64,000 nt of DNA from an uncultured bacterium (lineage in GTDB: Bacteria > Cyanobacteriota > Cyanobacteriia > Cyanobacteriales > Chroococcidiopsidaceae). Below, piece after piece: positions 1-43,279 of the stretch. The DNA is taken from contig CAXUIG010000002.1 in NCBI GenBank assembly GCA_964250845.1, positions 13,149 to 77,148 on the forward strand, in the 5' to 3' direction. The position numbers were made by a program, and so were the translations under genes. A model generated the notes under the pieces. That model was not told the DNA's origin. It ran no database searches and worked only from the letters and a program-made list of their open reading frames with translations. How positions within the stretch are numbered: the stretch's first letter is position 1; the number at the start of each line of letters is the position of its first letter.

Positions 1-3000
1 AATCTTGTTTTTGTAGCCAAGCGATGTAGTTGAGGTAGCTTCTTGCCGTTGGTTGGTCAGGTAAAGTTTCACCCTGCAAAATTACTTGATAAAAGTACAA
101 TAGGTCTTTGAAAACCAAAGGTACTGACCAGCCATCGAGCAATAAGTGATGAGAACTCCAAATGAATTGATAACTATCTGCACTCAGTTGGATGAGATTG
201 AGGTGCATCAGTGGTGCTTGAGACAGTTGGAAACCTTGTTGTCGCTGTGAGTGCAAAAAAATCTCTAATTGCTGTTGCTGCTCTTGTGCAGATAGCTCTC
301 GCCAATCATGAGTCTGTAGATTGACATCCACCTGCCGATACACGACTTGAAGTGGCTGGGTCAATTGCTCCCAAACAAAAGCAGTCCGCAAAATTGAATG
401 CTGTGCTATTACTTTCTGCCAAGCTTGCTCAAAAGCTGCCACGTTCAACTTCCCTGTCAAAGTGCAACTCAACTGCTCAAAATATACTCCTGAGTCTGGA
501 GCATACAAACTTTCAAACAGCATACCCTGTTGCATTGGAGAGAGCGGGTAAATCTCTTCAATATTTTTACATTTACTTTGATCTATTCCTTGTTTCAATG
601 CTAGGCTTGCCAACAGTTGATCTAGTTCTAGCTGGTTGAGCTTGACTAACGAGAAATCTGAGGGTGTATAACCGCCACTCTCAGGAGATGAACAATGAGC
701 AATTAGCCCTTGTAATGTCTTGACAAATTCTTGCGCCAGACCTTCAATTGTGGCGTGCTGGTGGACATTTGTGCTGTAAGTCCAATTGATTTGCAGTCGT
801 TCTCCAGTAATGATGCTGTTAATATCTAGCAAATAAGAGCGCTCGCCATGCACACTTTGGTTGTCTCCAGCAGACTCACTAGCCAGCTGCAGCCAGGAAG
901 ATGTATTGAGAAGTTGATCAAATTGACCCAGATAGTTGAAACTGATTTCTGCTTGAGGAAATGCCTGTAGTTGGGCAGCGATTTCTTCATCTTGACTCAG
1001 ATAGCGCAATAAGCCGTAACCAATTCCCTTGTTAGGAATAGCGCGCAGTTTTTCTTTGATATATTTTAAGGCATCTGCTGGATTTTCTGTTGCTTTCAGT
1101 TCCACAAGTACAGGGAAAATGGTCGTAAACCAACCGATGGTACGTGACAAATCCACACCATCAATAATATCTTCCCGCCCATGACCTTCTAAGTTGAACA
1201 GCACAGAGCTTGAGTTAATCCATTTGCCCAAAACCAGCACCAAGGCAGTCAGTAGCACATCATTAATCTGAGTGTTGTAGGCTTTTGGCACATCTTGCAG
1301 TAAGGCACGAGTTTGTGCCTCATTTAACGACACTGATACTGTACTAGCAGATGCAACAGTGTTCACCCCTTGTGTATAGTCCACTGGGATGGAAAGAACT
1401 GCGAAGCGAGATTCATTGAGCCAATAAGCCACTTCGGATTTCAGGGCTTCTGATTGTGCATATTCTGTTAATTTTTCAGACCAATCCTTGAAAGAAGTTG
1501 TTTTGGCAGGAAGCGCGATCGCTTTACCTTTGGCAAGTTGCTGGTAAGCGGTTTGCAAATCCTCTAACAGAATTCGCCAAGAAACACCGTCAACTACCAA
1601 GTGGTGGATGACTATGAGTAATCGAGCGGGTTTGTCAACACCCAACCAGAAAAAGGCTACTTCAAATAGATTTTCTGACAGATTCAAACTCGCCTGTAAG
1701 GAAGTTGCCTTAGCTTCAATGGCAGTTTTTTGCTCACTCTCTGGGAGTGCCGATAAGTCTATTTGGGAAAAAGCAACGTTATCAGTCGGAGCAGAGTGAA
1801 TCTGCTGCCAAGTGGAGTCAGAGTGTGTAAAACGTAAGCGCAGAGCATCATGCTGTAATAGCAATTGCTGCAATACTTGCTTTAATAGCTCTGGCTTGAG
1901 GTCAGATGGAACTGAGAGCAGAAATGATTGATTAAAGTGGTGCGGCTCTGGTAAATTTTGCTCAAATAAATAGTTTTGAATTGGCGTTAGAGGTAATGTC
2001 CCTGTGACTAATCCTTGTTCTATTTGGATAACACTCGCTATGTTTGCCACTGTGGCTAATTCCACAATTGTTTGATGTGCAAATAATTGCTTTAGAGTCA
2101 GTTGCAATCCTGCTTGCTTTGCTCTGCTGATGATTTGAATACTGAGAATGGAATCTCCACCAAGTTCAAAGAAGTTATCGTGAATTCCTACTTGCTCTAC
2201 TCTGAGAACTTGTGCCCAAATCTGCGCTAGTATTTCTTCAATTTGATTGCGTGGGGCTACAAAACTGACTTCCAGTTCTCCACGGGAGTCTGGTGCGGGC
2301 AAAGCGCGGCGGTCTACCTTGCCGTTGGCAGTTAGTGGTAGGGACTCTAGCATCACAAAAGCATGTGGCACCATGAAAGTAGGCAATTGATGCAACAGGA
2401 ACTGACGCAACTGGCTAATCGTGGGTGCATAGTCCTGATGCGGTACTACATAAGCAACTAAGCGCTTATCACCGGGAGTCTCTTCACGAGCAATGACACA
2501 AGATGCTTGCAAATCGCCATGTTGGCTCAGTACTGCTTCAATTTCGCCCAACTCGATGCGAAAACCGCGAATTTTAACTTGATTGTCTATACGTCCTAAG
2601 TATTCGATGTTACCATCACTCAAGTAGCGTGCTAAGTCCCCGGTTTTGTAGAGGCGGGAATGTGGATTAGTACTAAAGGGGTTGAGGATGAACTTTTCGG
2701 TTGTCAATTCTGGACGGTTCAGGTAGCCTTTTGCTAACCCCACACCACCAATGTACAATTCTCCTGGCACACCAATGGGAACAGCCTGTAAATACCTGTC
2801 TAGAATATATACAGTCTTGTTAGGCAGGGGACGACCAATAGGGATTTTTTTTAGATTGATTTCTTCACTAAACTGGGGAAGAATTTCAAACAGGGTTGCT
2901 GTGATGGTTGTCTCTGTGGGACCATAAGCGTTGAGCAGACGAACACAAGACATTGGGCTTTGTTGCCAAAGGGCAACATATTCGGGCAACATTACGTCTC

Positions 3001-6000
3001 CACCAACAATTACAAGTCTCAGTTGGCTGTTTCCATCTAACACTTGTGTTTTGACCCACTCTTGAGCCAATTGTTGCCAATAGGCTGTTGGGAGATTAAC
3101 AACAGTGAGTCCAAAATCAGAAATTATTTTTTGGAAGCTTGTCAGAGTCCATACATCTGAGGTTCGGAGTACCAAGGTAGCGCCAACCATTAGTGTAGGA
3201 AATATCTGCTCCAATGAGGCATCGAAGTTTATTGAGGCAAACTGGAGTACGCGATCACTGTACACAAGTGCGTAAGCCTGTTGAATAATACAGCAGTGGT
3301 TGGCAATCGCGCCATGTGGGATGAGAACCCCTTTGGGTCTGCCTGTAGAACCGGAAGTGTAAATCACATAAGCAAAATTAGTTGCTTGCACCTCTGTGAT
3401 TAGATTGTTCTGACTAGACTTAGAGACAAGGAGCCAGTCAGTATCCAAACAGACAAGCTGCGCTTGATGTTTAGGCAACCCCCCAATTAGATGCTGTTGG
3501 GTCAGCAGCACCGAAACTTGAGCATCTTCTAGCATAAAGCTAAGACGGTCTTGAGGATAGTCTGGGTCAAGCGGCACATAAGCCCCACCCGCCTTAAGAA
3601 TGCCAAGTAGTCCCACCACCATTTCCAGTGAGCGTTCCACACACAACCCAACCAGCACATCCGCTCCCACACCCAAAGACTGCAAGTAATGCGCCAACTG
3701 GTTAGCGCGACAGTTCAATTGGTAGTAAGTCAGTTGTTGATTTTCAAACACAACTGCCACAGCATCTGGAGTACGCTGAACCTGCTGCTCAAACAGATGA
3801 TGGATACACTTATCTAGTAGATAATCGGTTTGAGTATCGTTCCATTCAACTAATAACTGATGCTGCTCAATTTGTGTGAGCAAAGGCAATTGCGAAATCC
3901 GCTGCCTAGGGTTAGCAACAATACCTTCAAGCAATGTCTGAAAATGCCCAGTCATCCGCTCAATTGTGCTGGGATCAAATAAGTCAGTGCTATACTCCCA
4001 TACACCCACCAGTCCAGCAGTAGTGTTCTGCATTGATAAAGACAAATCAAACTTGGCAGTTGCGCTTTCTGCTGGCAAAGAACTTATAGTTAAGCCAGCA
4101 AGCTCTACTTCAGATATGGGCGCATTCTGAAGTGCAAACATCACTTGGAACAGTGGTGTATGGCTGAGGTCTCTTTGTGGCTGCAATGCTTCCACTAGCA
4201 TTTCAAATGGCAAGTCCTGATGAGCATAGGCATCCATTGCCATGAACCGAACGCGACTAAGTAATTCGCTAAAGCTAGGATTGCCTGCTAAGTTAGTACG
4301 CATTACTAAAGTGTTGACAAAGAAGCCAATTAACCCCTCTATCTCACTACGATTACGGTTAGCAATGGGAGAACCCACCAAAATATCTGATTGTCCTGTG
4401 TAGCGATAAAGTAACGTATCAAACGCTGCCAACAGCGTCATGAATAAAGTAACTCCTTGTTGCTGACTCAGTTTTGTCAGCCTACCAGTTAGCTCAACTG
4501 AGAGTGAAAACTTTTGATATGCTCCTGCGAAAGTCTGCACAGATGGTCTGGGTCGATCTGTGGGGAGGGACAACAAAGCTGGTGCATCTGCCAGTTGTTG
4601 TTGCCAGTAACTCAGTTGGTTTTGCAGTACATCCCCTTGCAACCAGTGTCTTTGCCAGATGGCAAAATCTGCATACTGAATCGGCAGCGGTGCTAAGGGT
4701 GAGGGCTGACCTTGAGAGTAAGCATTGTATAGTGCTGCTAGCTCTTGGACAAACACACCCATTGACCAGCCATCACTGACAACATGATGCATACATACTA
4801 ACAAGACATGTTCTGTCTCGGACAGCACAATTAATGTTGCCGTAATTAATGCTTGGTTTGCCAAGTCAAACGGTTGAATAGCTTGTCGTTGCACTAATTG
4901 CTGGCTAGTAATTTCTTGCTCAGTTGTCGATAAATGCTGCCAGTCAATTACTGACATCCTCCAAGCAGTTTCTGTGTAAATAATTTGAGAAGGTTTTCCA
5001 TCAACTATGACAAAGTTAGTGCGTAATGCTTCGTGGCGAACAATGATTTCATGCAAGCTTTGTTCTAAGGCTGTCACCCTCAGAGTTCCTACTAGGCGCA
5101 AAGCTAAAGGTATGTTGTATAAGGCACTGTTCGACTCGAATTGGTCTAAAAACCACAGACGCTGTTGAGCAAATGATAGTGGTAATTCTGCATTCTTTGC
5201 TCTTGGTAAGATGGGTGGAGAAGTTAGTTTTAAGTTTTGTTGCTGTAACTGCCCAATCAGATGCGCCAATTCCGCAACTGTTGCTCTGGCAAACAACTCA
5301 CGCAATGGTAGTTCCACTTTGAGAATGTTGCGGATGTGTGAAACCAATTGTGTTGCTAGCAGCGAGTGTCCGCCAAGTTCAAAGAAGTTATCATGAATGC
5401 CCACTCGCTCTACTTTCAGCACTTGTGCCCAAAGGAGTGCCAGCATTTCTTCGATTGGGTTGCGTGAGGCAACATATTTGTCTTTTTGTTCGCTGTGTAA
5501 ATCCGGTACGGGTAGGGCACGGCGGTCTACTTTGCCGTTGGGAGTAAGCGGCAGCGACTCCAGGATAACTATTGCATTTGGCACCATGTACTCTGGCAGC
5601 TTTGCTTTCAGGAATTGGCGCAGTTTGCTGATTGTGGGTGTACAGTCCTGATGTGCTACCACGTAGGCGACTAAGCGTTTATCACCTGGGGTATCTTCGC
5701 GGGCGATGACACAAGATACCTGCACATCACCATGTTGGCTCAGGACTGTTTCAATTTCTCCCAATTCGATGCGGAAGCCGCGTATTTTTACTTGATTATC
5801 AATTCGTCCCAAGTATTCGATATTGCCGTCACTTAAGTATCGTGCTTTATCCCCGGTTTTGTAGAGGCGGGAATCGGGGTAGTTGCTAAAGGGGTTGGGG
5901 ATGAATTTCTCTTGTGTTAACTCTGGTCGGTTAAGGTACTCTTTTGCTAGACCATCTCCCGCAATATATACTTCTCCCGGCACACCAACGCCTACTGGCT

Positions 6001-9000
6001 GTAGTTGGGAATCTAACACATAGATTTGCGTGTTGGAAATTGGTCGCCCGATGGGAATAGTTGTAGCGCCTTCGGGGACATCCTGCACTAAGTACCAGGA
6101 AGTAAATGTTGTATTTTCTGTTGGTCCATAAACATGCAGCAGTCGCTGTGGCGCACCATTTTTCAGTACTTCTTTGACCCATTTAGGATCGACAGCTTCT
6201 CCTCCAAATAGAAGCTCCCGCACTGTATTGAAAGCACAGGGAACTTCCTGGGCAACTTGATTGAACAAAGCAGTTGTCAAGAATAACACGCTGATTCCTT
6301 GCGCTTGAATAAAGGTTGCGAAATCTTTTGGCGCCAGAGCCAAATCTTTGCTAACCCCTACCAGCCGTGCTCCTTGAAGTAGCGCTCCCCAAATTTCAAA
6401 GGTCGCAGCGTCGAAGGCGTAATTTGAGGCTTGTGCAATTACATCTTTAGCAGAAAAGCTCACATAGTCGGTTTGTTTGACTAATCGAACTACACCTCGA
6501 TGGACAATGCTAACACCTTTGGGTTGACCTGTAGAACCAGAGGTGTACATTACATAAGCTAAGTTATCAGCTTTGATGTTAGTAGTCGGGTTCTGTTGTG
6601 TTTCTTGATTGATGAGATCCCAGTTTGTGTCTAAGTAAATTCCACAAGCTTTGTGATTGGGTAGTTTGTTAACTAGTTTTTCTTGAGTCAATAAGACTGA
6701 TATCTGAGTGTCTTCGAGCATGAAGCTTAAGCGCTCTTGGGGATACTCTGGGTCGAGAGGTACATAAGCACCACCCGCCTTGAGAATTCCCAACATTCCC
6801 ACCACCATTTCTAATGAACGTTCAACACACAACCCAACCAGTACTTCTGGTCTGACCCCAAGTGTTTGTAGATAATGGGCGAGTTGATTTGCTCTTGCGT
6901 TTAACTCGGCATAGGTCAGGTGTTGATCTCCAAATATCACCGCCGTTTCATTGGGTGTTTGCTCTACTTGCGCTTCAAACAACTGGTGAATGCATTTATC
7001 TTTAGGATATTCTACTGCTGTCTGGTTCCATTCCACCAGAAGTTGATGGCGCTCCTCTAAAGAAACAAGAGAGTGCAACTCATAACGTCCTTGTGGCTGG
7101 TTCGCCATTGCAGCAAGAACTTTGATGTAATAATCACTAATCCTATTGATTTGTTCGGAGCATAACTCACACACATCGTACTTCAAATTCAGTCCTACCT
7201 CAGACGAGCTTGGACTCACGCTGAATTGAGCAAGAAAAGTAAAGTTTGTTTGTTCAAAAAACTTTCCACCTACTAGCTGCAAATTATCGAGTCCCAGCAC
7301 CTGTTCGTAGACATGGAAATGGGTGAAATTAAACGCCGTCTCAAACAAAGATTCACCACCCAAACTCCTCTGTATTTCCGCCAAAGGATAGCGACGGTGT
7401 GGCAACATTTCTCGTTCTGCTGCAAACACTTGCCGTACTAGTTCTATCCAAGTGCCTCCACCCAATTGCAGGCGAAATGGCAATGTATTGAGGAATAGTC
7501 CCAGGACTCGCTCACCATCACTTTGTTCAGGTCGTCCGTTAGCTGCTAAACCCGTTAGTACGTCTGACTCACCACTTAGGAAATTTAACACTCGCAGATG
7601 TGCAGCCAACAGCACACTCTTGAGTGGAACTTCTGCGGACTGAGCCAGTTGTTTTAAGCCTTCAAAAATCTCAGGAGATAAAGTTACCTCTTGAACACCA
7701 ATTTCTGTAATATTGGTGTTTGTTGGTATAGAAGACCAGCGAGGCAATTTGGTGAAAGTGCTGTCATTTAACTTTTCACTCCAGTAGCGCTGAGTCTCGG
7801 ATGAGGCGATCGCTTGTTGCTCTAAAGCTACAAAATCCCGGAACGCAATACTGAATTGTGGCGATACATAATCGACTTGCTTGTCTAAAAGCGACAAGTA
7901 ACGCTTAAACAACTCACTCATCATTGAGGCAACACTCCACCCATCGAGAATGGCATGGTGGAAGCTCAAAGCCAGATTAAATGTCTCCTGTGTGCGACGA
8001 TGAACAAAGAAACGCACTAAGGGAGGATGAGTCCAATCAAAATGCCGTTTCTTTTCGGCTTCAAACCAAGCAGCTAAGGCTTCTTCTTGCTCAGAATGAT
8101 TCAAATGACACCAATCCTCCATTTGCAAGGGAACCTCAACTTGCTGATGAACCAGCTGCAACGGAATACTGAAATTACTAAGCTCAAATGAGGTTCGCAG
8201 TACAGCGTGATGATTGACTAAATCTTGGACAGCGACTTGTAAAAGTTGAACATCAAGAGGGGTTTTGAGGTGGAAACTGAAAATGTCGTGATAGACTGCA
8301 CTATCTTGGCTGTACTCACTGTGGTAAATCATTCCCATTTGCAGTATAGCCAGAGGATAGGCATCCTCTAGACCATTAGGTAACTGCTGTTTGTCTGTTT
8401 GGGAAATGAGACTGAATGGTTGAGTTAATTCTAATTTTGTGGTGTCATTCTCTTGTGTTTTCAGTTCTTGGACTAGCTCGTGAATCGTCTGATGTTGGAA
8501 TAGCTGTTGCACAGAGAAACTCAAACCTTGTTCTTTAGCTTGAGACAGCACTTGAATACTACGGATAGAATCTCCACCTAAAGCAAAGAAGTTATCATTA
8601 ATACCCACCTGCTCAACACTGAGAACCTTAGCCCAGATGGCGGATAATATTTTCTCTTCAGGAGTGCTAGGAGCGACAAAAACATCTTCTAGTTCTGGTC
8701 TTGCAGTGTCAGGTGCTCTCAATGCGCGACGGTCTACCTTACCGTTTGCTGTCAGTGGTAGAGCTTCTAACTGTACAAAAGCACTTGGTACCATGTACTC
8801 TGGCAGCTTTTGTTTGAGGAAGCGACGTAGTTCTGCGGCTGTGGGAGATTGTTCTGTCTCCGGCACAACGTAAGCCACTAGACGTTTGTTGCCCGGTTCA
8901 TCCTCGCGAACCACCACCACGCTTTCCCAGATGGCTGGGTGAGAAGCCAGTAGTGCCTCAATTTCTCCCAACTCAATGCGGAAACCGCGAATCTTGACTT

Positions 9001-15034: not shown

Positions 15035-15124
15035 AGAATCATTACCTCCAGATTTTTACCTAATTCGTAATTCGTAATAGCCTACGGCAAAGCTTGTGCC
15101 TACGGAATCAAAAAGTATGTTTAC

Positions 15125-30195: not shown

Positions 30196-33100
30196 AATTC
30201 TATCTTAATCCTATTGCTGGCTTTGCCATTTACTAGCTTAACCGTCTCATTTTTTTGCTTATTTTCTTGAGTAAATTTATCAGAGTCTAAGCCAATCTCC
30301 TGCACTAGATAATCAGTCAGCAACTCTACAGTAGGATACTCAAAAACTAAATTTAGCGGCAAAGACAATTTTAAACTCCTTTGCAGGTGATTTTTTAAAT
30401 CTAAAGAAGTTAGCGAATCCATTCCTAGCTCGAAAAACCTTTTCTGTAGATCGATTGGTTCTGATTGCCAACCGAGGACTTTAGCCACTACTGAACAAAT
30501 ATGCTCCTGCAAAAGCTTGCGACGTTTGGTAATATTTGTTGTCTTTAATTTTTCAACCAGATCAGATTGCACAACCACAGTTTTTACTGAAGTTTGTAAA
30601 AAATTAGTGAGAAACGACGAAACTGAAGTTGATTTTTCCAAAATCTGCACCCAATTAATAGGCATAACTGCAACTTGAGTAGAGGATTGACACAGTAATT
30701 GATCCAGAGCAACTAATCCCTGTTCTGGGGTAAACGTTCCAATACCCCGCGATTTTGTTTGCTCATCAAGTTGACGCTGTGCGAAGGCTCCTACTTGCGA
30801 CCAAGCTCCCCAGTTGATGCTCAAACCTGCTAGTCCCTGAGCCTGGCGATGATGGGCTAAGGCATCAAGAAAAGCATTAGCTGCTGCATGGTTAGATTGA
30901 CCTGGATTACCAAGTAAAGAACTTATAGAAGAAAACATCACAAAGAAGTCTAAGGGCTGGTTCTGAGTTAAAGTATGCAGATGCCAAGCTCCTTGTACTT
31001 TTGGAGCCAGAACTTTTGCAAAGCGTTGCCAGTTTTGTTGTTGTAGAACGCCATCATCCAAAACACCAACAGAATGAATAATTCCGCGCAGTGGTGGTAA
31101 AGTTTGCTCAATTTCTGAGAGTACTTTTGTGATTTGTTTGACATCAGACACATCCGCCTGAGCAACCTTTACCTGAGCGCCAGCTTGTTCTAACTCTTGA
31201 AGTTGCTCATTAACAGTAACACTTGCAGCACTACGCCCAACTAGCACCAAATGCCTTGCTCCCCGTTGCACCATCCAACGAGATACCAATAAACCCAAAC
31301 CACCCATACCGCCAGTTATCAGGTAGGTACTATCCTCACGGAACGTTAGAGGCTTGCGCGCTGCTGTTTCTATATAATCTTTAGGCTTCCGGTAGCGAGC
31401 TAACCTTGCGACATAACGCAGTTGGTCAGTAAAGGCAACCTGGTCTTCTGTAGTCGGTAACCAAATTTCCTCAAATAGGGCTTGCACCACTCCAGCATCC
31501 GCCTTTGGAGTCAAATCTACCCGCACACAGTTGAGTTCTGGATGTTCGCTAGCAATCACCCTTGCCATTCCCCACAAGCTTGATTGTGCTACTCCCTCTA
31601 GGTTGTTGATTGCCACTGCTCCCTGAGTTACTAACCAGAGACGAGGATGAGCAAATAAATTAGCCCCTGTTAATGCCTGGACTAAATGCAAGGTGCTACC
31701 ACAACTTAGCAAGGATGCCGCAGCTAAATCGGCTGGGGTGAGTTCTGCTGCTTTAAGTGTATCTAAACTCCAGCAATGAACGACACCATACAAAGGCAAG
31801 GGTTTGCTATTGATTGCCTGCAATAACTTGTGATAATGTTGTGGTTTTCTTGGATTAATTTTGAACTTTTGCTCGTCTAATTGTTCATATTCCTCACCAA
31901 CAAATACTAAGGTACAAATTTGTGAGTGAGTATCTAGCTTGGCAGCTAACTGCTGCGCTATCCCTAGCCGATCTGCGAATAACAGCCAATGTCTTGGCTC
32001 AATTTGCAGCGACTCATTTTGTGATGGTGGTAATTGTGCCAGCATTACCATTGCTGGAGATAAAACGCTTTGAGTCTGTTGAGCAGGTGATAGATTGACT
32101 GTGCTTGTAAACCCAGTCTCTTGCAATACTTCTTGCCATTGAGCAGCACTAATCAAGGGATAGTCTGGGCGCAAGTGCAAATCGCTAAATCGCCACCATC
32201 CTGGAGTTAATCCAAAGGTTAAGTCCAGCCAACGCTGACGCTGAGTTGTTTCCAATAAAATTAATATGCCCTGTGGTGCTAATAATTGCTTGGCGTGCTT
32301 GAGGGTTTGTTGCAAATATTGGGTGGCATGCAAGACATTGGCAGCGACAATTACATCATATTGCTGCCTTTGAAATCCTTGGCTAAAGGGGTCCTTTTCA
32401 ATGTCTAATACTTTATATTTTAGAAATGGGAAATCCTGGAATTTTTCCTGTGCTTTTTGGGTAAAAAAGATACCAATATCGCTGAAGTGGTATTGGGTTT
32501 GCTCACAGGACAAAGGTGGTAGCAGGTAAGAGGTTGTTCCACCAGTTCCGGCACCAATTTCCAATATTCTTAATCCCCGTCCAGTTGGTAAATGCTCTAA
32601 AATTGAAACTAGGGCTTGTTGGGCTAAGATATTCATCACCTTTGTCAGTGGCGAATTCTCATATAACTGGGCTGTAGTTGAGTCGTCTTCGGGGAAAAGC
32701 AATTGCAATGGGTCACATTCACCCCGTAGGACTTGGGCTAATGATGGGCCGCAACGTCCTAGTAGAGTGAATTCAGCATTTGCTATTGGATATTGAGTTA
32801 ACAGGGTATTTAATTTAGCTTGCGGATCGCTGATTTCTGGCTGGCGAATGACTTGCCACTCAAAAGCTTTTGCCTCTAACACCCCTACTTCCGCTAACAT
32901 TTCTAGCAGTCGCTTTAATAGCCGTTGGTGTTGGCTGACTATTCCTAACTGGTTAGCGATCGCGGTTGTAGTGAAGCGCTGCCCTAGTTGCAGTTCCCAC
33001 CCCATTGCCGTCAGGGCTTGCAACACATAGTCAATACTGAGTGCTTCTAACTGGCTGACTGCTACCTCATAAACTTTTAGCTGTGGTTCAGCCATCAATT

Positions 33101-36100
33101 GAGAATATTGTGGGTGAAGTTTACGGCTAATTTCTTCAAGTGCTGGCAGGTAATCTGGATACAGTTGCTCATTGCTAAAGCGCACTTGAGGATGCCACTC
33201 TACTTCATACAGCCAATTCTCTAAATAATTTTCTTTGAAGTCTAGCTGGAGACTTTGTAACAAAGTGTTAGGAGTCGCTTTTTTAGCCTCCAAGCCTTTG
33301 ATTTCTGCAATCAACTGTCCGTTAGCGTCAAAAAGTCTGATATCTGCTAATAGCTTGTCTAGATGGGAGTTCTCCGACTGCGACCGTACCGCATGACACC
33401 ATAATTGCTGACTTTGGGGACGTTGGTAAAACCGGAAACTCTCAATTGCGAAGGGTACAAAAGTGTCTTCGCTAGGGAAGAAAGTGCTGATCAGTTGCAA
33501 GCAGGAGTCCACAAGACCCGGATACAACTGATACTCGTATTGACTATCTCCTACGGAAAGCCATTTGAGCTTGGCTAGGGCTTCTCCTTCCCCACACCAG
33601 ATGGAATCAAGCCACTGGAAGCTTGAACCCAATTGAATCTGCCGCTTTTGCAAACTTTGGTAAATTTCGAGTGCAGCTATTTGTTTTTGACAACGTGTCT
33701 TTATCTGTTGGAGAAAGACAGTTTCTAGTCTAGTGTTAACGCCTTTAGAGATTTTCCCTGTGGCATGGACTAGCCACTGACCTACCTGAGTACTACTATT
33801 TGGGACTGTATCAAAGCTGATGAGTTGGAAAGATGCACTACTCTCCTCTGGAGACAGCACCAGCTGCACCGTGCGCACTTTATCTTCGGGGATAACCAGT
33901 GCCTGGGGGAAAACTATATTTTCTAACAGACATGACTCACTGGCGAAAGTCAACCCTGCTGCACCCAATAGTAAGGAGAGATGACAGGCTCCAGGCACAA
34001 CAATTTGGTTATAAACTTGATGATCTACTAAAAACGGTAGGTTTTGGGTACTGAATTCAGACTCAAACAAGATTTCTTTGCTTAGGGGCAGCTGGAGCTT
34101 TTTGTCTAATAATGGGTGCAGTTTTGTAGAGTTTTGTTGCCGTTGATGCCGACGCGGAGTATTCTCAATCCAATAGCGCTGTCGTTGAAACGGATAGGTG
34201 GGTAGTGTGACTTTCTTCCGGAAATAGTCGCGGTCAAACCCTGACCAATCTACTGCCATTCCGCCTACATATAACTCAGCCAAACTAGAAAGCAGTTGTT
34301 GCCATTCTGACACTCCAACACGCAGAGAAGGCAACCACAAACCCACGCTGTCAGGCAAGCACTCACGCCCCATACCCAACAAAATTGGCTTGGGCCCAAC
34401 CTCTAAAAAGACTTCATACCCTTGCTGATGCAATGTCTGCATACTATCGGCAAACCGCACTGTTTGACGGACGTGATTCACCCAGTATTGTGCATTGGTG
34501 ATATTCTCGTCAGCAAGTTGTCCGGTGACATTAGAGACTAATGGGATCTGAGGTTGATTGTAGGTGACATGACTAGCTACTTGTTCAAACTCCTTCAACA
34601 TCGGTGTCATCAATGGGGAATGGAAGGCATGGGATACCTGTAACCGCTTCGTTTTCACCCCCTGGGTTGACACTTGCTGACAAATAGCAGCAATGTCTTC
34701 ACTGGCTCCCGAAATCACTACACTTTCGAGCCCATTGATAGCAGCGATCGCCACTGTATGATCATAAGGAGCGATCGCTTCGAGCACCAGCTCCTCTGAA
34801 GCCATCAGCGAAACCATATCGCCTCCCGATGGCAACTGCTGCATCAACTGTCCTCGATGAAAAATGAGTTTGAGTCCATCTTCCAAGCTAAAAACACCAG
34901 CTATACAAGCAGCAACATATTCGCCTACGCTATGCCCCATCACCACATTTGGTTCAATGCCCCAGGATTTCCACAGTTGATACAGGGCATATTCAAAAGC
35001 AAACAACGCTGGTTGGGTATAGGCGGTTTGGTCCAACAAATATGAGACTTGCTCAAGAGCCTGGGTAGGATAGAGTATCTCTAATAATGAATATTCCAGA
35101 TAAGGGCGGAGGATTTCATCGCACTGCTGCAAAGTTTGGCGGAAGATGGGCTGAGTGTCGTAGATTTGGCGCCCCATGTTGATGTACTGTGAGCCTTGAC
35201 CAGTAAACAAGAAGGCTATCTTTGGTGGCTTTTTGCCTGGTTGACGACTAATTAAGCCAGCGGTGTCTTTCCCAGATGCCAAAGCAGTGAGTTGATCAAC
35301 CAATTGCTCTCTAGAGTCGGCCACAATAGCAAGACGGTAGTCAAAATGTGCTCGCCCACTGTTGGCCGTGTAACAAATATCTGCTAGCGATATCTTCAAA
35401 TCGGAGCTTAAATAAATTTGATATCTTTTTGCCAGTTCCTTTAGAGCCTTCTCAGTTTTCGCCGAAAGTGTCATCAAGTGGCTTGGACGCTCAATTTTCG
35501 TAACAACTATTTCTTCTGGCACTGACGACTCTTCTAGGATTACATGGGCATTAACACCCCCAAAACCAAAGGAACTTACCCCTGCTCGTCTAGGAATATT
35601 TGTTCCTGCTTTTGTCTTTAAATGTTCCCACTCTTTTGTTTCTTTAACTATATAAAATGGACTACCATCTAACTTGATTCGAGGATTTAATTGCTGAAAG
35701 TTATTCATTCCTGGCAATTTTTTATATTTTATTGCCAATAATACTTTTATGATCTCGGCAATACCTGCTGCTGATTCTAAATGTCCAATATTTGTTTTGA
35801 CTGAACCTAATCCACAATAGCTTTCTGCGGTTAGTTCAATACCATAGTGCTGATACAGTTGTGTATATGCTCGTTTTAAAGCATTAATTTCAATTGGGTC
35901 GCCTAATGGCGTACCTGTTCCATGAGCTTCTATATAAGATACTGTATCAGGCGTAATATTTGCCTTTATACATGCAGACCTCACAACTTGCGATTGAGAA
36001 TAAGCATTGGGAGAGGTTAAAGTACGGGCATGACCACCATGATTTATGGCACTCCCTTTAACTATTCCATAAATATAATTTTTATCCTCAACTGCTTTTC

Positions 36101-36902
36101 TAAAAGGTTTTAATAAAATGACACCTGCCCCTTCACCTCGCACATAACCGTCTGCTTTGGCATCAAAGGTTTTGCATTTGCCTTCAGGTGATAACATACC
36201 CAACTTACTGAAAGAGATATAACTAGTCGGTGTACACAATATGCTGACCCCACCAACTAATGCCATCTCACATTCATTTTGATTAAGTGAATTCACTGCT
36301 TGATGAATTGCGACAAGTGAGCTAGAACAAGCAGTATCTATAGGAATACTAGGACCATGAAAGTTGAAAAAATAGGAAATTCGATTTGGAATAATACAAG
36401 TATAGGTACCTGTAGAATTATGTCCTTCAATGGCTTCGCCCTGCTCCTGTAATTCTTTATAATCGAAATTACAAACGCCAATAAAAACACCAACGTTATT
36501 TCCTGATAGTTCTAATGGTGAATATCCAGCATCTTCTAAGCATGACCAGCTCAGTTCTAGCATTAGCCTTTGTTGAGGGTCCATTCGCTTAGCTTCTCGA
36601 GCTGATACCTGGAAAAAATTTGCGTCAAATTTATCTATGTCTTCGATAAATCCTCCCCATTTACTATTACTTGTATTGGGATTATCGATATTTGAAGAAT
36701 AAAAATCATCAAGATTCCATCGTTGTTTAGGTATCTCCGTTACACTATCTATTCCTTTTTCTATATTCACCCAAAATTCATTATAATTATTTGCACCTGG
36801 AAATCTACATGCCATACCAATAATGGCAATTGCCTCTGGCTGAATGCTAACCTTTAACAAATCACTATCAAAATCACCTGTCATGTCAGTTTCATTGTTC
36901 AT
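30192..36902 (-). CDS. Type I polyketide synthase module KS-AT-DH-cMT-KR-ACP. It starts directly with KS, with no loading didomain.
   Basis: ORF track, 2236 aa. KS: DTACSSSLVAIH, EAHGTGT, NIGHLE. AT: GHSVGE and HAFH (malonyl-type). DH: LVDHQVYNQIVVPGA. cMT: LRILEIGAGTGG. KR: TYLITGGMGGLG, LDD motif, but NHAAAN where NYAAAN is expected. ACP: LGMDSLTS. Confidence 0.95.
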   Translation of the reverse strand: MNNETDMTGDFDSDLLKVSIQPEAIAIIGMACRFPGANNYNEFWVNIEKGIDSVTEIPKQRWNLDDFYSSNIDNPNTSNSKWGGFIEDIDKFDANFFQVSAREAKRMDPQQRLMLELSWSCLEDAGYSPLELSGNNVGVFIGVCNFDYKELQEQGEAIEGHNSTGTYTCIIPNRISYFFNFHGPSIPIDTACSSSLVAIHQAVNSLNQNECEMALVGGVSILCTPTSYISFSKLGMLSPEGKCKTFDAKADGYVRGEGAGVILLKPFRKAVEDKNYIYGIVKGSAINHGGHARTLTSPNAYSQSQVVRSACIKANITPDTVSYIEAHGTGTPLGDPIEINALKRAYTQLYQHYGIELTAESYCGLGSVKTNIGHLESAAGIAEIIKVLLAIKYKKLPGMNNFQQLNPRIKLDGSPFYIVKETKEWEHLKTKAGTNIPRRAGVSSFGFGGVNAHVILEESSVPEEIVVTKIERPSHLMTLSAKTEKALKELAKRYQIYLSSDLKISLADICYTANSGRAHFDYRLAIVADSREQLVDQLTALASGKDTAGLISRQPGKKPPKIAFLFTGQGSQYINMGRQIYDTQPIFRQTLQQCDEILRPYLEYSLLEILYPTQALEQVSYLLDQTAYTQPALFAFEYALYQLWKSWGIEPNVVMGHSVGEYVAACIAGVFSLEDGLKLIFHRGQLMQQLPSGGDMVSLMASEELVLEAIAPYDHTVAIAAINGLESVVISGASEDIAAICQQVSTQGVKTKRLQVSHAFHSPLMTPMLKEFEQVASHVTYNQPQIPLVSNVTGQLADENITNAQYWVNHVRQTVRFADSMQTLHQQGYEVFLEVGPKPILLGMGRECLPDSVGLWLPSLRVGVSEWQQLLSSLAELYVGGMAVDWSGFDRDYFRKKVTLPTYPFQRQRYWIENTPRRHQRQQNSTKLHPLLDKKLQLPLSKEILFESEFSTQNLPFLVDHQVYNQIVVPGACHLSLLLGAAGLTFASESCLLENIVFPQALVIPEDKVRTVQLVLSPEESSASFQLISFDTVPNSSTQVGQWLVHATGKISKGVNTRLETVFLQQIKTRCQKQIAALEIYQSLQKRQIQLGSSFQWLDSIWCGEGEALAKLKWLSVGDSQYEYQLYPGLVDSCLQLISTFFPSEDTFVPFAIESFRFYQRPQSQQLWCHAVRSQSENSHLDKLLADIRLFDANGQLIAEIKGLEAKKATPNTLLQSLQLDFKENYLENWLYEVEWHPQVRFSNEQLYPDYLPALEEISRKLHPQYSQLMAEPQLKVYEVAVSQLEALSIDYVLQALTAMGWELQLGQRFTTTAIANQLGIVSQHQRLLKRLLEMLAEVGVLEAKAFEWQVIRQPEISDPQAKLNTLLTQYPIANAEFTLLGRCGPSLAQVLRGECDPLQLLFPEDDSTTAQLYENSPLTKVMNILAQQALVSILEHLPTGRGLRILEIGAGTGGTTSYLLPPLSCEQTQYHFSDIGIFFTQKAQEKFQDFPFLKYKVLDIEKDPFSQGFQRQQYDVIVAANVLHATQYLQQTLKHAKQLLAPQGILILLETTQRQRWLDLTFGLTPGWWRFSDLHLRPDYPLISAAQWQEVLQETGFTSTVNLSPAQQTQSVLSPAMVMLAQLPPSQNESLQIEPRHWLLFADRLGIAQQLAAKLDTHSQICTLVFVGEEYEQLDEQKFKINPRKPQHYHKLLQAINSKPLPLYGVVHCWSLDTLKAAELTPADLAAASLLSCGSTLHLVQALTGANLFAHPRLWLVTQGAVAINNLEGVAQSSLWGMARVIASEHPELNCVRVDLTPKADAGVVQALFEEIWLPTTEDQVAFTDQLRYVARLARYRKPKDYIETAARKPLTFREDSTYLITGGMGGLGLLVSRWMVQRGARHLVLVGRSAASVTVNEQLQELEQAGAQVKVAQADVSDVKQITKVLSEIEQTLPPLRGIIHSVGVLDDGVLQQQNWQRFAKVLAPKVQGAWHLHTLTQNQPLDFFVMFSSISSLLGNPGQSNHAAANAFLDALAHHRQAQGLAGLSINWGAWSQVGAFAQRQLDEQTKSRGIGTFTPEQGLVALDQLLCQSSTQVAVMPINWVQILEKSTSVSSFLTNFLQTSVKTVVVQSDLVEKLKTTNITKRRKLLQEHICSVVAKVLGWQSEPIDLQKRFFELGMDSLTSLDLKNHLQRSLKLSLPLNLVFEYPTVELLTDYLVQEIGLDSDKFTQENKQKNETVKLVNGKASNRIKIEL

Positions 36903-36925
36903 ACTTCAACTCGCTAAACACTGCT

Positions 36926-37102
36926 TTAATTATTTAACTGCATAAGCTTTTGAATATTCCTGATTCGTCTAAAGTGAGTCGGGTTTGCATGAAACAGGCA
37001 AAACTTTTCGTAGGCACTCACCCACAGCCTCTCCAGGTGCTCAATCGGGAACTGTCTCAAGGTTTCTGGGTTAGATAATTGGGGCTGTGCGGCAAGGTTC
37101 AT
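36926..37102 (-). CDS. Hypothetical 58-aa protein immediately upstream of the first PKS gene and co-oriented with it.
   Basis: My translation: MNLAAQPQLSNPETLRQFPIEHLERLWVSAYEKFCLFHANPTHFRRIRNIQKLMQLNN, then a stop. It falls below the 60-aa cutoff of the ORF track. The stop lies 23 nt before the PKS ATG. I recognise no motif. Confidence 0.3.
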   Translation of the reverse strand: MNLAAQPQLSNPETLRQFPIEHLERLWVSAYEKFCLFHANPTHFRRIRNIQKLMQLNN

Positions 37103-37248
37103 TTACTTATGATACTAGAAAAAATTATGTGATCAAGTCCCTGACTTAAATCCTTACAATACAATAAACTCATTGAAATTAAAAAACTACGCTGAACTTA
37201 AGTTTACAAATCATCTCACCTTCATCACCAAAATGCAATATAAATTAA

Positions 37249-37309
37249 GACAGTTAAGTGGACAGTTAAGACAGTTAAGCAGATAGTTAAAATATTTAAA
37301 ACAGTTAAT
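37249..37309 (-). promoter_or_regulatory. Array of CTTAACTGT(C) motifs, read on the minus strand, upstream of the PKS-NRPS operon. Candidate transcription-factor binding array.
   Basis: The plus strand shows gacagttaag at 37249-37258 and 37261-37270, and acagttaag at 37271-37279. Degenerate copies are agatagttaa and acagttaat (37301-37309). The same motif, in the same orientation relative to transcription, occurs at 42980-42995 upstream of the LeuB-like gene and at 39654-39680. Confidence 0.45.
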
Positions 37310-37338
37310 CAAGACTAATTAGGTAACTGTAACTAACA

Positions 37339-37362
37339 TAAAAAAAGAGGCATACAGCCTCT
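37339..37362 (-). terminator. Putative intrinsic terminator after the small membrane-protein gene.
   Basis: The minus strand reads agaggc-tgtat-gcctct followed by a run of seven T. This is a 6-bp stem and 5-nt loop, about 95 nt downstream of the stop at 37458. Confidence 0.45.
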
Positions 37363-37457
37363 AGAGCCCAAAAAAGGGCTATCCTGGGATTTTAGTGAAA
37401 GTTTATCTATTACTAGGAAAACCCAAGATAATCACAAGGTGAAAGCCCTGATTTTGC

Positions 37458-37829
37458 TCAGCCATCAGATGTTTTTAGCGCCTTAAACTCAGAATAAAGC
37501 TGTATTTCAGCTTTAAGTTTGTGTTTTAGATCGTCTGAAATAGCCAAACTGTCAATTTCGCTCAGGAGACTTGCGCTTGGTTCAGTTTTGCGGCGCTCCG
37601 CATACACTCCAGAGAGAATAGCGTCAATTCCGAATCGAGCTAAAGCATCGCTAACGAGCGTCATAAGACCTATTACGGTTATACCACCTATGATTCCAAA
37701 AGGTCCACCAAACATAGCAATTGCTATTGGTATAGCCAAATAAACTGCCAACCCTCTAGTGGCTAATGTAATAACAAGTATTACGCCACTTAACCCCAGA
37801 GATGCAATTCTTTTAATTACGTCATCCAT
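37458..37829 (-). CDS. Small membrane protein (two predicted glycine-rich hydrophobic helices plus an amphipathic C-terminal tail). Paralogue of 46119..46520.
   Basis: ORF track, 123 aa. It aligns along its length with the 133-aa ORF at 46119. Shared blocks: MDxxxKxIAxLGLxGVILVIT, GGPFGIxGGI, LMTLV, ALAxxGIxxIL, YAER, TE, LKxKLK. Confidence 0.8.
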   Translation of the reverse strand: MDDVIKRIASLGLSGVILVITLATRGLAVYLAIPIAIAMFGGPFGIIGGITVIGLMTLVSDALARFGIDAILSGVYAERRKTEPSASLLSEIDSLAISDDLKHKLKAEIQLYSEFKALKTSDG

Positions 37830-37957
37830 TACAGTACCTGTTAGTTAGTTAAAATTTTGCCTTTTTTACTTTATCCTACATTTCGGTTGTTGTCATTATT
37901 TATTTGCCATCAAAACATCAGCTGTACAAGTGACACAAGTAAGCGCCCCTGGATGAA

Positions 37958-43220: not shown

Positions 43221-43279
43221 CCTTGCTGCTGAGCAAGAACGCTATTTTACAGCCAACGAGGTGTTGGAGTTATGGGAAA

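What the first reader, a model, noticed from the sequence alone, without database searches (positions are those of the whole stretch)
1..37102. Orphan hybrid PKS-NRPS assembly line (over 37 kb, four genes) whose predicted product I cannot match to a known cyanobacterial metabolite
The gene order on the minus strand is as follows.
- PKS: KS-AT-DH-cMT-KR-ACP.
- NRPS: C-A-T, C-A(MT)-T, C-A-T.
- PKS: KS-AT-cMT-T.
- NRPS: C-A-T, C-A-T, C*-A-T, C-A-T-E, C...

The first three genes are joined by ATGA start/stop overlaps at 30192-30195 and 19384-19387. Both NRPS genes carry TubC-type N-terminal docking sequences.

Hand-read specificity codes are Thr (DFWNIGMVHK, three times), Phe-like (DAWTIAAVCK), Pro-like (DVQFIAHAVK), Ile/Val-like (DAFFLGVTFK) and an unassigned DAENIGAITK. 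The unassigned pocket has Glu at position 239, which may indicate a basic substrate, and its module carries an E domain.

By colinearity the chain would be: starter? - C2(alpha-methyl) - Thr - O-Me-Thr - Phe - C2(alpha-methyl, beta-keto, since this module has no KR) - Pro - Thr(modified?) - Ile/Val - D-Xaa - ...

A gamma-amino-beta-keto unit made from an amino acid plus malonate has a precedent in Nostoc, the leucyl-acetate unit of nostopeptolide. The overall combination is unfamiliar to me. The termination module lies outside the window.
Basis: partly seen in the sequence, partly recalled or inferred. Interest (0 to 1): 0.8.

Follow-up and report, generated by a model that had tools for sequence, protein, structure and literature searches.

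The report
Nostopeptolide L-type depsipeptide synthetase, not orphan
The four giant genes are real and were read correctly, but they are not an orphan: module by module they match the already described Nostoc cyclic depsipeptides nostopeptolide L1-L4, so this is an ordinary new family member, probably with two changed residues and one possibly disabling point mutation.

Summary
Four co-directional minus-strand genes encode PKS (KS-AT-DH-cMT-KR-ACP), NRPS (C-A-T, C-A(FkbM-MT)-T, C-A-T), PKS (KS-AT-cMT-ACP) and NRPS (C-A-T, C-A-T, C*-A-T, C-A-T-E, C...). The ATGA overlaps, TubC docking domains and hand-read specificity codes are all confirmed.

The "orphan" interpretation does not hold. Nostopeptolides L1-L4 from lichen Nostoc sp. 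UK2aImI are MHEA[Thr-O-MeSer-PhePr-(Me)Pro-Dhb-Ile-Gln-Hyp/Pro]. The window predicts 2-methyl-2-enoyl, Thr, O-Me-Thr, Phe plus C-methylated malonate with the keto group kept, Pro, Dhb, Ile/Val, D-Xaa.
- C* is a dehydrating C domain; its best solved relatives are McyA and AmbE.
- Syntenic clusters occur in at least 8 other Nostocales genomes. Five of them carry a Ser code at position 2, exactly as in L1-L4.
- The central PKS is 82-83% identical to the MinC/NosB(KVJ3) PKSs, which make the same Phe-derived keto acid (Amopa).
- In Nostoc sp. HG1 the homologue ends in one more Pro-like module plus TE, followed by a PhyH dioxygenase and an ABC transporter.

Differences here are Thr instead of Ser at position 2 and a Lys-like code instead of Gln at position 7.

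One thing is new. The central PKS reads GHGIG where 119 of 120 fetched homologues read GHSxG, so its acyltransferase nucleophile is missing.

The parts
30192..36902 (-). g1, initiating PKS: KS-AT-DH-cMT-KR-ACP (2236 aa). Predicted to make the N-acyl 2-methyl-2-enoyl unit (MHEA in nostopeptolide L).
   Evidence: Pfam. The KS has Cys/His/His and the AT reads GHSVG plus HAFH, the malonyl type. cMT motif I and the KR LDD motif are present. The DH His is present in a DHxxxNxxxxP context shared by the orthologues. Orthologues P0242, P0243 and P0244 are 83-91% identical.
19384..30195 (-). g2, NRPS (3603 aa): TubC-type docking, then C(acyl-accepting)-A(Thr)-T, C-A(Thr, interrupted by an FkbM MT)-T, C-A(Phe)-T.
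   Evidence: Its ATG overlaps the g1 stop codon.
23215..23790 (-). FkbM-family methyltransferase domain inserted between motifs A8 and A10 of the second A domain. It is the predicted O-methyltransferase acting on Thr (on Ser in relatives).
   Evidence: PF05050, E=1.3e-13, aa 2136-2327. The same insert is found at 84-91% identity in 15 related loci.
15125..19387 (-). g3, PKS (1420 aa): KS-AT-cMT-ACP with no KR. It extends Phe-S-T by one C-methylated malonate and keeps the beta-keto group, giving PhePr/Amopa.
   Evidence: Pfam. Same-architecture orthologues at 76-88% identity occur in more than 50 Nostocales entries. It is 82-83% identical to the N. minutum NIES-26 (L066) and Nostoc KVJ3 (P0034) PKSs, whose clusters are linked to Amopa.
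17468..17470 (-). Codon GGT (Gly640) at the AT active-site position. The motif reads GHGIG instead of GHSIG.
   Evidence: 119 of the 120 other fetched proteins have GHSxG; one distant 54%-identity protein (P0079) gave a non-canonical regex match. All 57 same-architecture orthologues read GHSIG, and nine close loci have AGT at this codon.
1..15034 (-). g4, NRPS, 5' part only (at least 5011 aa in the window): TubC docking, C-A(Pro)-T, C-A(Thr)-T, CmodAA-A(Ile/Val)-T, C-A(DAENIGAITK)-T-E, then the start of a D-acceptor-type C domain. It runs off the left edge.
7016..8380 (-). C* is a dehydrating (modAA-type) condensation domain. It converts the upstream Thr-S-T into dehydrobutyrine (Dhb) while condensing.
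   Evidence: Best PDB sequence hits are McyA 8jbr (E=1.7e-159) and AmbE 7r9x (E=3.8e-68). It is only 24-26% identical to the other L-acceptor-type C domains in the window. It sits at the same position, at 86-91% identity, in 6 related genomes.
2306..3355 (-). Fourth A domain of g4, code DAENIGAITK (position 7 of the peptide). Predicted to select a basic residue, Lys-like.
   Evidence: Its nearest A-domain core in the window is the presumed Lys domain of the plus-strand cluster (DTENIGSVIK, 46% identity). Coordinates are approximate.
656..2026 (-). Epimerisation domain (HHLVVDG) following the fourth T domain (GGDSI).
   Evidence: 58% identical to the E domain of the plus-strand NRPS. Coordinates are approximate.
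30037..30183 (-). TubC-type N-terminal docking domain of g2.
   Evidence: PF18563, E=2.7e-10, aa 5-53.
14876..15004 (-). TubC-type N-terminal docking domain of g4.
   Evidence: PF18563, E=6.5e-16.

Best explanation
The locus is a nostopeptolide-L-type hybrid PKS/NRPS assembly line. It belongs to the nostopeptolide/minutumamide superfamily of Nostocales.

**Proposed pathway.**
1. g1 takes a short acyl starter on its KS. The starter is butyryl by analogy with MHEA, and no loading module is encoded (inferred). g1 adds one malonate (HAFH-type AT), C-methylates, reduces and dehydrates it, giving 2-methylhex-2-enoyl-ACP.
2. A TubC-type docking pair hands this unit to the acyl-accepting first C domain of g2. 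g2 adds Thr, then Thr that is O-methylated by the FkbM domain embedded in its A domain, then Phe.
3. g3 condenses Phe-S-T with malonyl-ACP and C-methylates. Having no KR, it leaves the ketone. The product is the 4-amino-2-methyl-3-oxo-5-phenylpentanoyl unit (PhePr/Amopa).
4. g4 adds Pro and then Thr. The following CmodAA domain dehydrates that Thr to Dhb.
5. g4 then adds Ile/Val and a residue selected by DAENIGAITK (Lys-like), which is epimerised to D.
6. Outside the window, by homology, come one more Pro-type module and a TE. The TE lactonises onto the side-chain OH of Thr1. A PhyH dioxygenase and an ABC transporter probably follow.

**Predicted product.** MHEA-[Thr-(O-Me)Thr-PhePr-Pro-Dhb-Ile/Val-D-Lys(?)-Pro/Hyp], about 1047.60 or 1063.60 Da for the Ile/Lys forms. 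This is a new congener of a known scaffold.

**Shown versus inferred.** Shown are the domains, their order, the specificity codes, the CmodAA identity and the synteny with relatives. Inferred are the starter, the ring closure, the position-7 substrate, the terminal module and whether the line is active in this strain.
For: - **Domain order and codes:**
- **Published structure:** the L1-L4 unit order comes from PMC6835634. My residue sum for L4 is 1033.55 Da. This equals the lower end of the 1033-1080 Da range the review gives for nostopeptolides, so PhePr is the keto form.
- **C\*:** it is McyA/AmbE-like.
- **Orthologous clusters:** they show Thr, Ser or Thr (MT domain in all but the Scytonema HK-05 locus L004), Phe, KS-AT-MT-ACP, Pro, Thr, CmodAA and then Ile/Val or an aromatic residue. 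The Ser type occurs in L081, L001, L002, L021 and L031. The Thr type occurs in L083, L004, L046 and L005.
- **g1-g2 linkage:** it is kept in two other genomes.
- **Cluster end:** in Nostoc HG1 the end (84% identical over the overlap) is E-C-A(DAHFIAHVV)-T-TE, followed by PhyH and an ABC transporter.
- **g3-type PKS:** it is tied to Amopa in minutumamides and nostopeptolide KVJ3, with 82-83% identity.
- **Selection:** dN/dS of 0.18-0.27 against orthologues shows ongoing purifying selection.
Against: - Position 2 has a Thr code here, not the Ser required for O-MeSer.
- Position 7 has DAENIGAITK, not the usual Gln code DAWQFGLID seen in related clusters.
- The last module, the TE and the tailoring genes are not in the window.
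- No MePro genes (nosE/nosF) are in the window.
- I could not read Liu et al. 2014. I do not know whether the UK2aImI gene cluster has been published, so the link is compound-to-architecture, not cluster-to-cluster.
- The g3 AT lacks its nucleophile. The full-length product may therefore not be made in this strain.
- The starter chain length cannot be read from the sequence.
Confidence: 0.85

Rival explanations
1. The cluster is of the nostopeptolide-L type but is a natural knock-out in this strain. Without the AT serine, g3 cannot load malonate, so the line stalls after MHEA-Thr-OMeThr-Phe. At most a shunt product, or nothing, is released.
For: GHGIG replaces GHSxG, which 119 of the 120 other fetched homologues carry. 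It results from one AGT to GGT change relative to the nine close loci checked. Ser is the acyl-enzyme nucleophile of all malonyl/acyl transferases (established knowledge). g3 shows a slightly higher dN/dS in the window lineage, 0.25-0.27 against 0.19-0.21 among relatives.
Against: All four reading frames are intact over 37 kb. Overall dN/dS is like that of the relatives, so any inactivation is recent. The AT of g1, or FabD, could load the g3 ACP in trans. A single-base assembly error cannot be excluded, because P0001 is the only identical entry and is probably the same assembly.
Confidence: 0.3
2. One reading: a genuinely orphan assembly line that makes a scaffold unrelated to any described cyanobacterial metabolite.
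For: No annotated name was attached to any homologue in the protein searches. Two of the nine predicted units differ from L1-L4.
Against: Six units predicted from the window coincide in order with nostopeptolide L1-L4, and a seventh (the last Pro/Hyp) is inferred from the Nostoc sp. HG1 homologue. These include three rare ones: a 2-methyl-2-enoyl cap, O-methylated Ser/Thr and a Phe-derived methyl keto acid. Ser-type orthologues exist. The PKS and NRPS blocks are 80-88% identical to members of the characterised nos/min family.
Confidence: 0.04
3. The locus makes a minutumamide-type or nostopeptolide-KVJ3-type small-ring depsipeptide (5-7 residues) rather than an L-type one.
For: g3 and the Phe module are orthologous to MinC/MinB and NosB/NosA(KVJ3).
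Against: Those clusters have Thr, Hmp(DVQFISQL) and Phe before the PKS, and Tyr/Ser modules after it. They have no CmodAA, no FkbM MT and a different or absent first PKS. The window has eight NRPS modules and a g1 type found in only three protein clusters.
Confidence: 0.03

Closest known systems
Nostopeptolides L1-L4 of lichen Nostoc sp. UK2aImI (Liu et al. 2014, ACS Chem Biol 9:2646, as summarised in PMC6835634)
   Same: The unit order matches: 2-methyl-2-enoyl cap (MHEA), Thr, O-methylated beta-hydroxy amino acid, Phe extended by a methylated C2 keto unit (PhePr), Pro/MePro, Dhb, Ile, one polar residue, then Pro/Hyp. The ring is closed onto Thr1. Six units read in the window coincide, and a seventh (the last Pro/Hyp) is inferred from Nostoc sp. 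HG1.
   Different: Position 2 is coded as Thr, not Ser. Position 7 is coded DAENIGAITK (Lys-like) with an E domain, not Gln. The terminal residue, the hydroxylase and the MePro genes are not visible in the window.
Nostopeptolide KVJ3 (nos) and minutumamide (min) gene clusters, Nostoc sp. KVJ3, N. minutum NIES-26 and N. linckia NIES-25 (Ishida et al. 2025, PMC12184294)
   Same: The Phe module, the KS-AT-MT-ACP PKS making Amopa, and the TubC-type docking to the next NRPS are shared. g3 is 82-83% identical, and the flanking modules are about 70-80% identical.
   Different: Those clusters start with a starter-C NRPS (hexanoyl) or an NpnA-like PKS (phenylbutyryl). They use Hmp at position 2, have no O-MT and no CmodAA/Dhb, and make 5- or 7-residue rings.
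Nostopeptolide A cluster nosA-G (Nostoc sp. GSV224, N. punctiforme)
   Same: The overall logic is shared: acyl cap, peptide, a single PKS module inserting a C2 unit after an amino acid with the keto group kept (LeuAc), more peptide, then Pro-TE lactonised onto a Ser/Thr. NosB-like proteins are 76-78% identical to g3 over KS-AT-ACP.
   Different: NosB has lost the C-methyltransferase (1243-1249 aa). The cap is butyrate added by a starter C domain, with no g1-type PKS. The amino acids differ, and there is no Dhb and no O-methylation.
Dehydrating condensation domains McyA-C2 (PDB 8jbr) and AmbE CmodAA (PDB 7r9x)
   Same: C* aligns full-length with both (E=1.7e-159 and 3.8e-68). It follows a Thr module, as expected for Dhb formation.
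   Different: The substrate here is Thr, giving Dhb. In my recollection the substrate in McyA is Ser, giving Dha. Activity was not tested.

Membership tests
Nostopeptolide L-type assembly line | Initiating PKS able to give a 2-methyl-2-enoyl cap (KS-AT(malonyl)-DH-cMT-KR-ACP) | tested here: met
   Pfam; motifs. The starter length (C4) cannot be read from the sequence.
Nostopeptolide L-type assembly line | Thr as first amino acid (the lactone anchor) | tested here: met
   Code DFWNIGMVHK.
Nostopeptolide L-type assembly line | O-methyl-Ser at position 2 (Ser-specific A domain carrying an O-MT) | tested here: not met
   The FkbM MT is present, but the code is Thr (DFWNIGMVH). The Ser code DVWHISLID is found in orthologues L081, L001, L002, L021 and L031. 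The window is therefore a Thr variant.
Nostopeptolide L-type assembly line | Phe followed by a KS-AT-cMT-ACP module without KR (PhePr/Amopa) | tested here: met
   Code DAWTIAAVCK plus the g3 domains. Caveat: the AT nucleophile is Gly, so activity is in doubt.
Nostopeptolide L-type assembly line | Pro/MePro, then Dhb made from Thr by a dehydrating C domain, then Ile | tested here: met
   Codes DVQFIAHAVK, DFWNIGMVHK and DAFFLGVTFK. C* resembles McyA/AmbE.
Nostopeptolide L-type assembly line | Gln at position 7 | tested here: not met
   The code is DAENIGAITK. The Gln code DAWQFGLID occurs at the equivalent place in other family members.
Nostopeptolide L-type assembly line | Terminal Pro/Hyp module with TE, and a proline hydroxylase | not testable with these tools
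   This lies outside the window. The Nostoc sp. HG1 homologue (84% identical over the overlap) has A(DAHFIAHVV)-T-TE, then PhyH and an ABC transporter.
Nostopeptolide L-type assembly line | 4-methylproline genes nosE/nosF | tested here: not met
   None lie among the window ORFs right of g1. The left side is unseen. L3 and L4 contain Pro, so MePro is not obligatory.
nos/min superfamily (Ishida et al. 2025) | NosB/MinC-type PKS flanked by NosA- and NosC-type NRPS modules with TubC-type docking | tested here: met
   Synteny is kept in about 35 of 80 GTDB loci, at 70-87% identity.

The most novel reading that the evidence does not exclude
There are two readings, and either or both could hold.

1. 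The Ser-to-Gly change at the g3 acyltransferase is real and tolerated. A cis-AT PKS module embedded in an NRPS line would then be loaded in trans, by the AT of g1 or by FabD. That would be a natural intermediate between cis-AT and AT-less architecture.
2. This locus and its relatives are the not-yet-published gene cluster type for nostopeptolides L. Here it would encode an undescribed basic congener with O-Me-Thr at position 2 and D-Lys at position 7.
Probability: 0.15. Interest if true: 0.45.

Novelty: new member of a known kind. Interest (0 to 1): 0.25.

Why it matters
It removes a false "orphan scaffold" lead. The locus can be filed with the nostopeptolide family, whose A-type members repress hormogonium formation in Nostoc according to papers quoted.

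It gives a concrete architecture-to-structure assignment for the L-series. This includes which domain makes Dhb and which methylates Ser/Thr, and it points to a PhyH candidate for Hyp formation.

It shows natural Ser/Thr and Gln/Lys-like swaps that fit the "mix and match" evolution described for this family.

The missing AT nucleophile is a cheap, testable predictor of whether this strain produces the compound at all.

Tried and rejected
**Identifying the source record.** Exact-protein look-ups of g3, of its 100% hit P0001 and of the aconitase-like gene found nothing. The cluster-member listing gave no names or accessions.

**Annotated plasmid record.** Scytonema sp. HK-05 plasmid1 (AP018195) is not in the plasmid collection.

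**Full-length g4.** The search with its last 1200 aa returned only proteins of about 2100 aa or less. The window's own full-length g4 was therefore not recovered. Only partial homologues such as P0123 were useful.

**Metagenome scan.** Scanning with g4 modules 1-2 was meant to link positions 2 and 7 on one contig. It returned only relatives at 70% identity or less. The five inspected (L085-L087, L093, L095) showed cyanopeptolin-like or other unrelated NRPS architectures.

**Literature searches with no hits.** These covered O-methylthreonine plus Nostoc, the strain name, and the specificity codes DAENIGAITK and its variants. One search was wasted on "MHEA", which matched mHealth papers. Liu et al. 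2014 is not held.

**Nostopeptolide KVJ3 supplement.** I tried to use it to assign DAENIGAIT. KVJ3 is Ha-Thr-Hmp-Amopa-Ser-Hmp-Tyr-Gly, which does not help.

**Decay test by unique substitutions.** I counted window-unique substitutions at otherwise invariant sites. This is not informative, because the window is the outgroup of the compared set. I replaced it with dN/dS.

**The G1293D change in the second C domain of g2.** It turns HHVVSDG into HHVVSDD, and I considered it a second lesion. I rejected it as weak, because HHxxxDD also occurs in other apparently intact cyanobacterial NRPSs.

Full report
**1. What is in the window**

Four long minus-strand reading frames fill positions 1-36902:
- g1 at 30192..36902 (2236 aa);
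- g2 at 19384..30195 (3603 aa);
- g3 at 15125..19387 (1420 aa);
- g4, a frame open from 15055 to the left edge (5018 codons).

Pfam gives these domains:
- g1: KS, AT, DH, a C-methyltransferase, KR and ACP.
- g3: KS, AT, a C-methyltransferase and ACP, with no KR.
- g2: a TubC-type docking domain, three C, three A and three T domains, plus an FkbM-family methyltransferase.
- g4: a TubC-type docking domain, six condensation-type domains, four A and four T domains.

They also place the FkbM domain between motifs A8 and A10 of the second A domain of g2.

The two ATGA start/stop overlaps are read directly. g4 probably starts at GTG 15034, behind a GGAGG.

Specificity codes were re-derived against a GrsA fragment recalled from memory. 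Its register is validated by returning the canonical Phe and Thr codes.

GCGATCGC (HIP1) occurs 36 times against 0.38 expected. This fits a cyanobacterial origin.

**2. The condensation-type domains**

An all-against-all comparison sorts them as follows:
- Four near-identical (82-87%) chain-elongating C domains.
- One divergent first C domain in g2, which receives the polyketide.
- One post-PKS C domain at the start of g4.
- One E domain, 58% identical to the E domain of the plus-strand NRPS.
- One C domain after the E domain, 55% identical to the corresponding post-E domain of the plus-strand cluster.
- One outlier, C* (g4 aa 2226-2680, window 7016-8380).

The best solved relatives of C* are McyA (8jbr, E=1.7e-159) and the dehydrating CmodAA domain of AmbE (7r9x, E=3.8e-68). 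C* follows a Thr module.

**3. Relatives**

g3 has same-architecture orthologues at 76-88% identity in more than fifty Nostocales entries. It also has shorter, MT-less homologues of 1243-1249 aa at 76-78% identity, which look like NosB of the nostopeptolide A cluster.

In about 35 of 80 species-representative genomes, g3 is flanked by the same NRPS modules. g1, in contrast, has only three close protein clusters (83-91% identity).

In two of those genomes g1 is followed by a g2-type NRPS with the FkbM insert. Nothing resembling a loading module lies upstream: one has transposase remnants and a histidine kinase, the other has CheW/CheR. The window has an unrelated S74-chaperone protein there.

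I read the specificity codes along the related loci. Both types share this series:

Thr, X(+MT), Phe | KS-AT-MT-ACP | Pro, Thr, CmodAA, Ile/Val (or an aromatic code)

- **Ser type** (X = Ser, DVWHISLID): Nostoc sp. JL34, XA010, DedQUE12b, LEGE 12450 and a lichen MAG.
- **Thr type** (X = Thr): the window, Scytonema sp. HK-05 plasmid1, Nostoc ChiVER01, DedQUE04 and an uncultured Nostoc.

The CmodAA domain sits at the same position, at 86-91% identity, in six of these loci.

The end of the line can be seen in Nostoc sp. HG1. A partial protein there is 84% identical to the last 879 window residues of g4. It continues E-C-A(DAHFIAHVV, Pro-like)-T-TE. It is followed by a PhyH-family dioxygenase and an ABC transporter.

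**4. The match to a known metabolite**

The review PMC6835634 summarises Liu et al. 2014. It gives nostopeptolides L1-L4 of the lichen isolate Nostoc sp. UK2aImI as MHEA[Thr-O-MeSer-PhePr-MePro/Pro-Dhb-Ile-Gln-Hyp/Pro]. MHEA is 2-methylhex-2-enoic acid and PhePr is phenylalanyl-propanoic acid.

| Element | Predicted unit | L1-L4 unit |
|---|---|---|
| g1 (KS-AT-DH-cMT-KR-ACP, malonyl-type AT) | 2-methyl-2-enoyl acid | MHEA |
| g2 module 1 | Thr | Thr |
| g2 module 2 | O-methylated Thr | O-MeSer |
| g2 module 3 plus g3 | Phe with a C-methylated, unreduced C2 unit | PhePr |
| g4 module 1 | Pro | MePro/Pro |
| g4 module 2 plus CmodAA | Dhb | Dhb |
| g4 module 3 | Ile/Val | Ile |
| g4 module 4 | D-residue (DAENIGAITK) | Gln |
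| HG1-type last module plus PhyH (outside window) | Pro/Hyp | Hyp/Pro |

Summing residue masses for L4 with PhePr in the keto form gives 1033.55 Da. This equals the lower limit of the 1033-1080 Da range the review quotes.

Independently, Ishida et al. 2025 (PMC12184294) isolated minutumamides and nostopeptolide KVJ3. [quoted passage not shown] That is the same unit. The PKSs concerned are among my hits at 82-83% identity: N. minutum NIES-26 (L066), N. linckia NIES-25 (L013) and Nostoc sp. KVJ3 (P0034).

The chemical reading that led to it was sound.

**5. How this member differs**

- **Position 2.** It is coded as Thr, so O-methyl-Thr is expected instead of O-methyl-Ser.
- **Position 7.** It carries DAENIGAITK. 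This code recurs in the superfamily at places where other members have the Gln code DAWQFGLID, and always before an E domain. Its closest relative among the window's own A domains is the presumed Lys domain of the plus-strand cluster (DTENIGSVIK; 46% identity over the pocket region). A basic residue, most likely D-Lys, is my inference. It is not shown.
- **Predicted mass.** The neutral mass is about 1047.60 Da (Ile/Lys/Pro) or 1063.60 Da (Hyp form).

**6. A possible lesion**

The acyltransferase of g3 reads GHGIG. Of the 120 other proteins fetched with g3, 119 read GHSxG. All 57 same-architecture orthologues read GHSIG, and nine close loci have AGT where the window has GGT (17468-17470).

The serine is the acyl-enzyme nucleophile of this enzyme class. 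On its own, the module should be unable to load malonate.

All frames are intact. dN/dS against orthologues (0.18-0.27) is like that among orthologues, with g3 only slightly raised. If the change is real, it is recent, or it is compensated in trans by the g1 AT or FabD. A one-base assembly error is equally possible.

A second window-specific motif change is HHVVSDG to HHVVSDD in the second C domain of g2. It is probably harmless, because HHxxxDD is seen in other intact NRPSs.

**7. Verdict**

The locus is a real, correctly delineated hybrid PKS/NRPS. It is a new member of the nostopeptolide L type within the nostopeptolide/minutumamide superfamily, and it probably encodes a new congener.

I could not establish the following:
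- whether the UK2aImI cluster itself has been published;
- the substrate of the position-7 domain;
- the starter unit and how the first KS is primed;
- whether the line is active in this strain.

Interest is modest.

Noticed in passing
window 17468-17470 (g3, minus strand): The AT active-site motif is GHGIG, not GHSIG. One AGT to GGT change removes the catalytic serine. 119 of 120 other fetched homologues keep GHSxG, and nine close loci have AGT.
   Followed up: yes
window 26317-26319 (g2, second C domain): A window-unique change turns HHVVSDG into HHVVSDD in the C-domain His motif. The same HHxxxDD form occurs in unrelated, apparently intact cyanobacterial NRPSs (L086, L095), so it is probably tolerated.
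   Followed up: partly
window 43223-64000 (plus strand): This is a second, separate cluster. It holds a LeuB-like dehydrogenase below the equivalog cut-off (43223-44362) and a fused LeuD/LeuC-like dehydratase (44355-46064). NRPS genes follow: A-T-C-A(DTENIGSVIK)-T-E (47296-53868), C-A-T (53876-57109), and C-A-T-C-A(MT)... running off the right edge. From memory, it looks like an anabaenopeptin synthetase with homo-amino-acid (hphB/hphCD-type) genes. It was not compared with a reference.
   Followed up: partly
window 36903-37957 and loci L081, L083: No loading module, FAAL, CoA ligase or free ACP lies upstream of g1 here or in two other genomes. How the first KS gets its (presumably butyryl) starter is unexplained.
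   Followed up: partly
window 2306-3355; loci L049, L006, L009, L023, L007; protein P0137: The unassigned code DAENIGAIT(K), or DAENLGAIT, recurs across the nostopeptolide superfamily. It usually sits before an E domain, at positions where other members carry the Gln code DAWQFGLID. No literature hit was found for the code.
   Followed up: partly
locus L004 (Scytonema sp. HK-05 plasmid1): The g2 orthologue has Thr-Thr-Phe codes like the window. It gave no tblastn hit to the FkbM methyltransferase insert, and its ORF is about 150 aa shorter. This member may have lost the O-methylation.
   Followed up: no
window 37958-39523 (minus strand): A 521-aa protein with a C-terminal Peptidase_S74 (endosialidase chaperone) domain and a weak beta/gamma-crystallin match lies between the two clusters. 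It has no obvious link to either.
   Followed up: no
window 40735-41211 (minus) and 41922-42470 (plus): One complete and one partial Uma2-family (putative restriction endonuclease-like) gene lie in the spacer between the clusters.
   Followed up: no
whole window: The HIP1 octamer GCGATCGC occurs 36 times against 0.38 expected from shuffles. This is typical of cyanobacterial genomes.
   Followed up: yes
locus L082 (Nostoc sp. HG1) 6255-9296: A PhyH-family dioxygenase and an ABC transporter lie directly downstream of the terminal TE. The dioxygenase is a candidate for the so far unexplained proline hydroxylation in nostopeptolides L.
   Followed up: no
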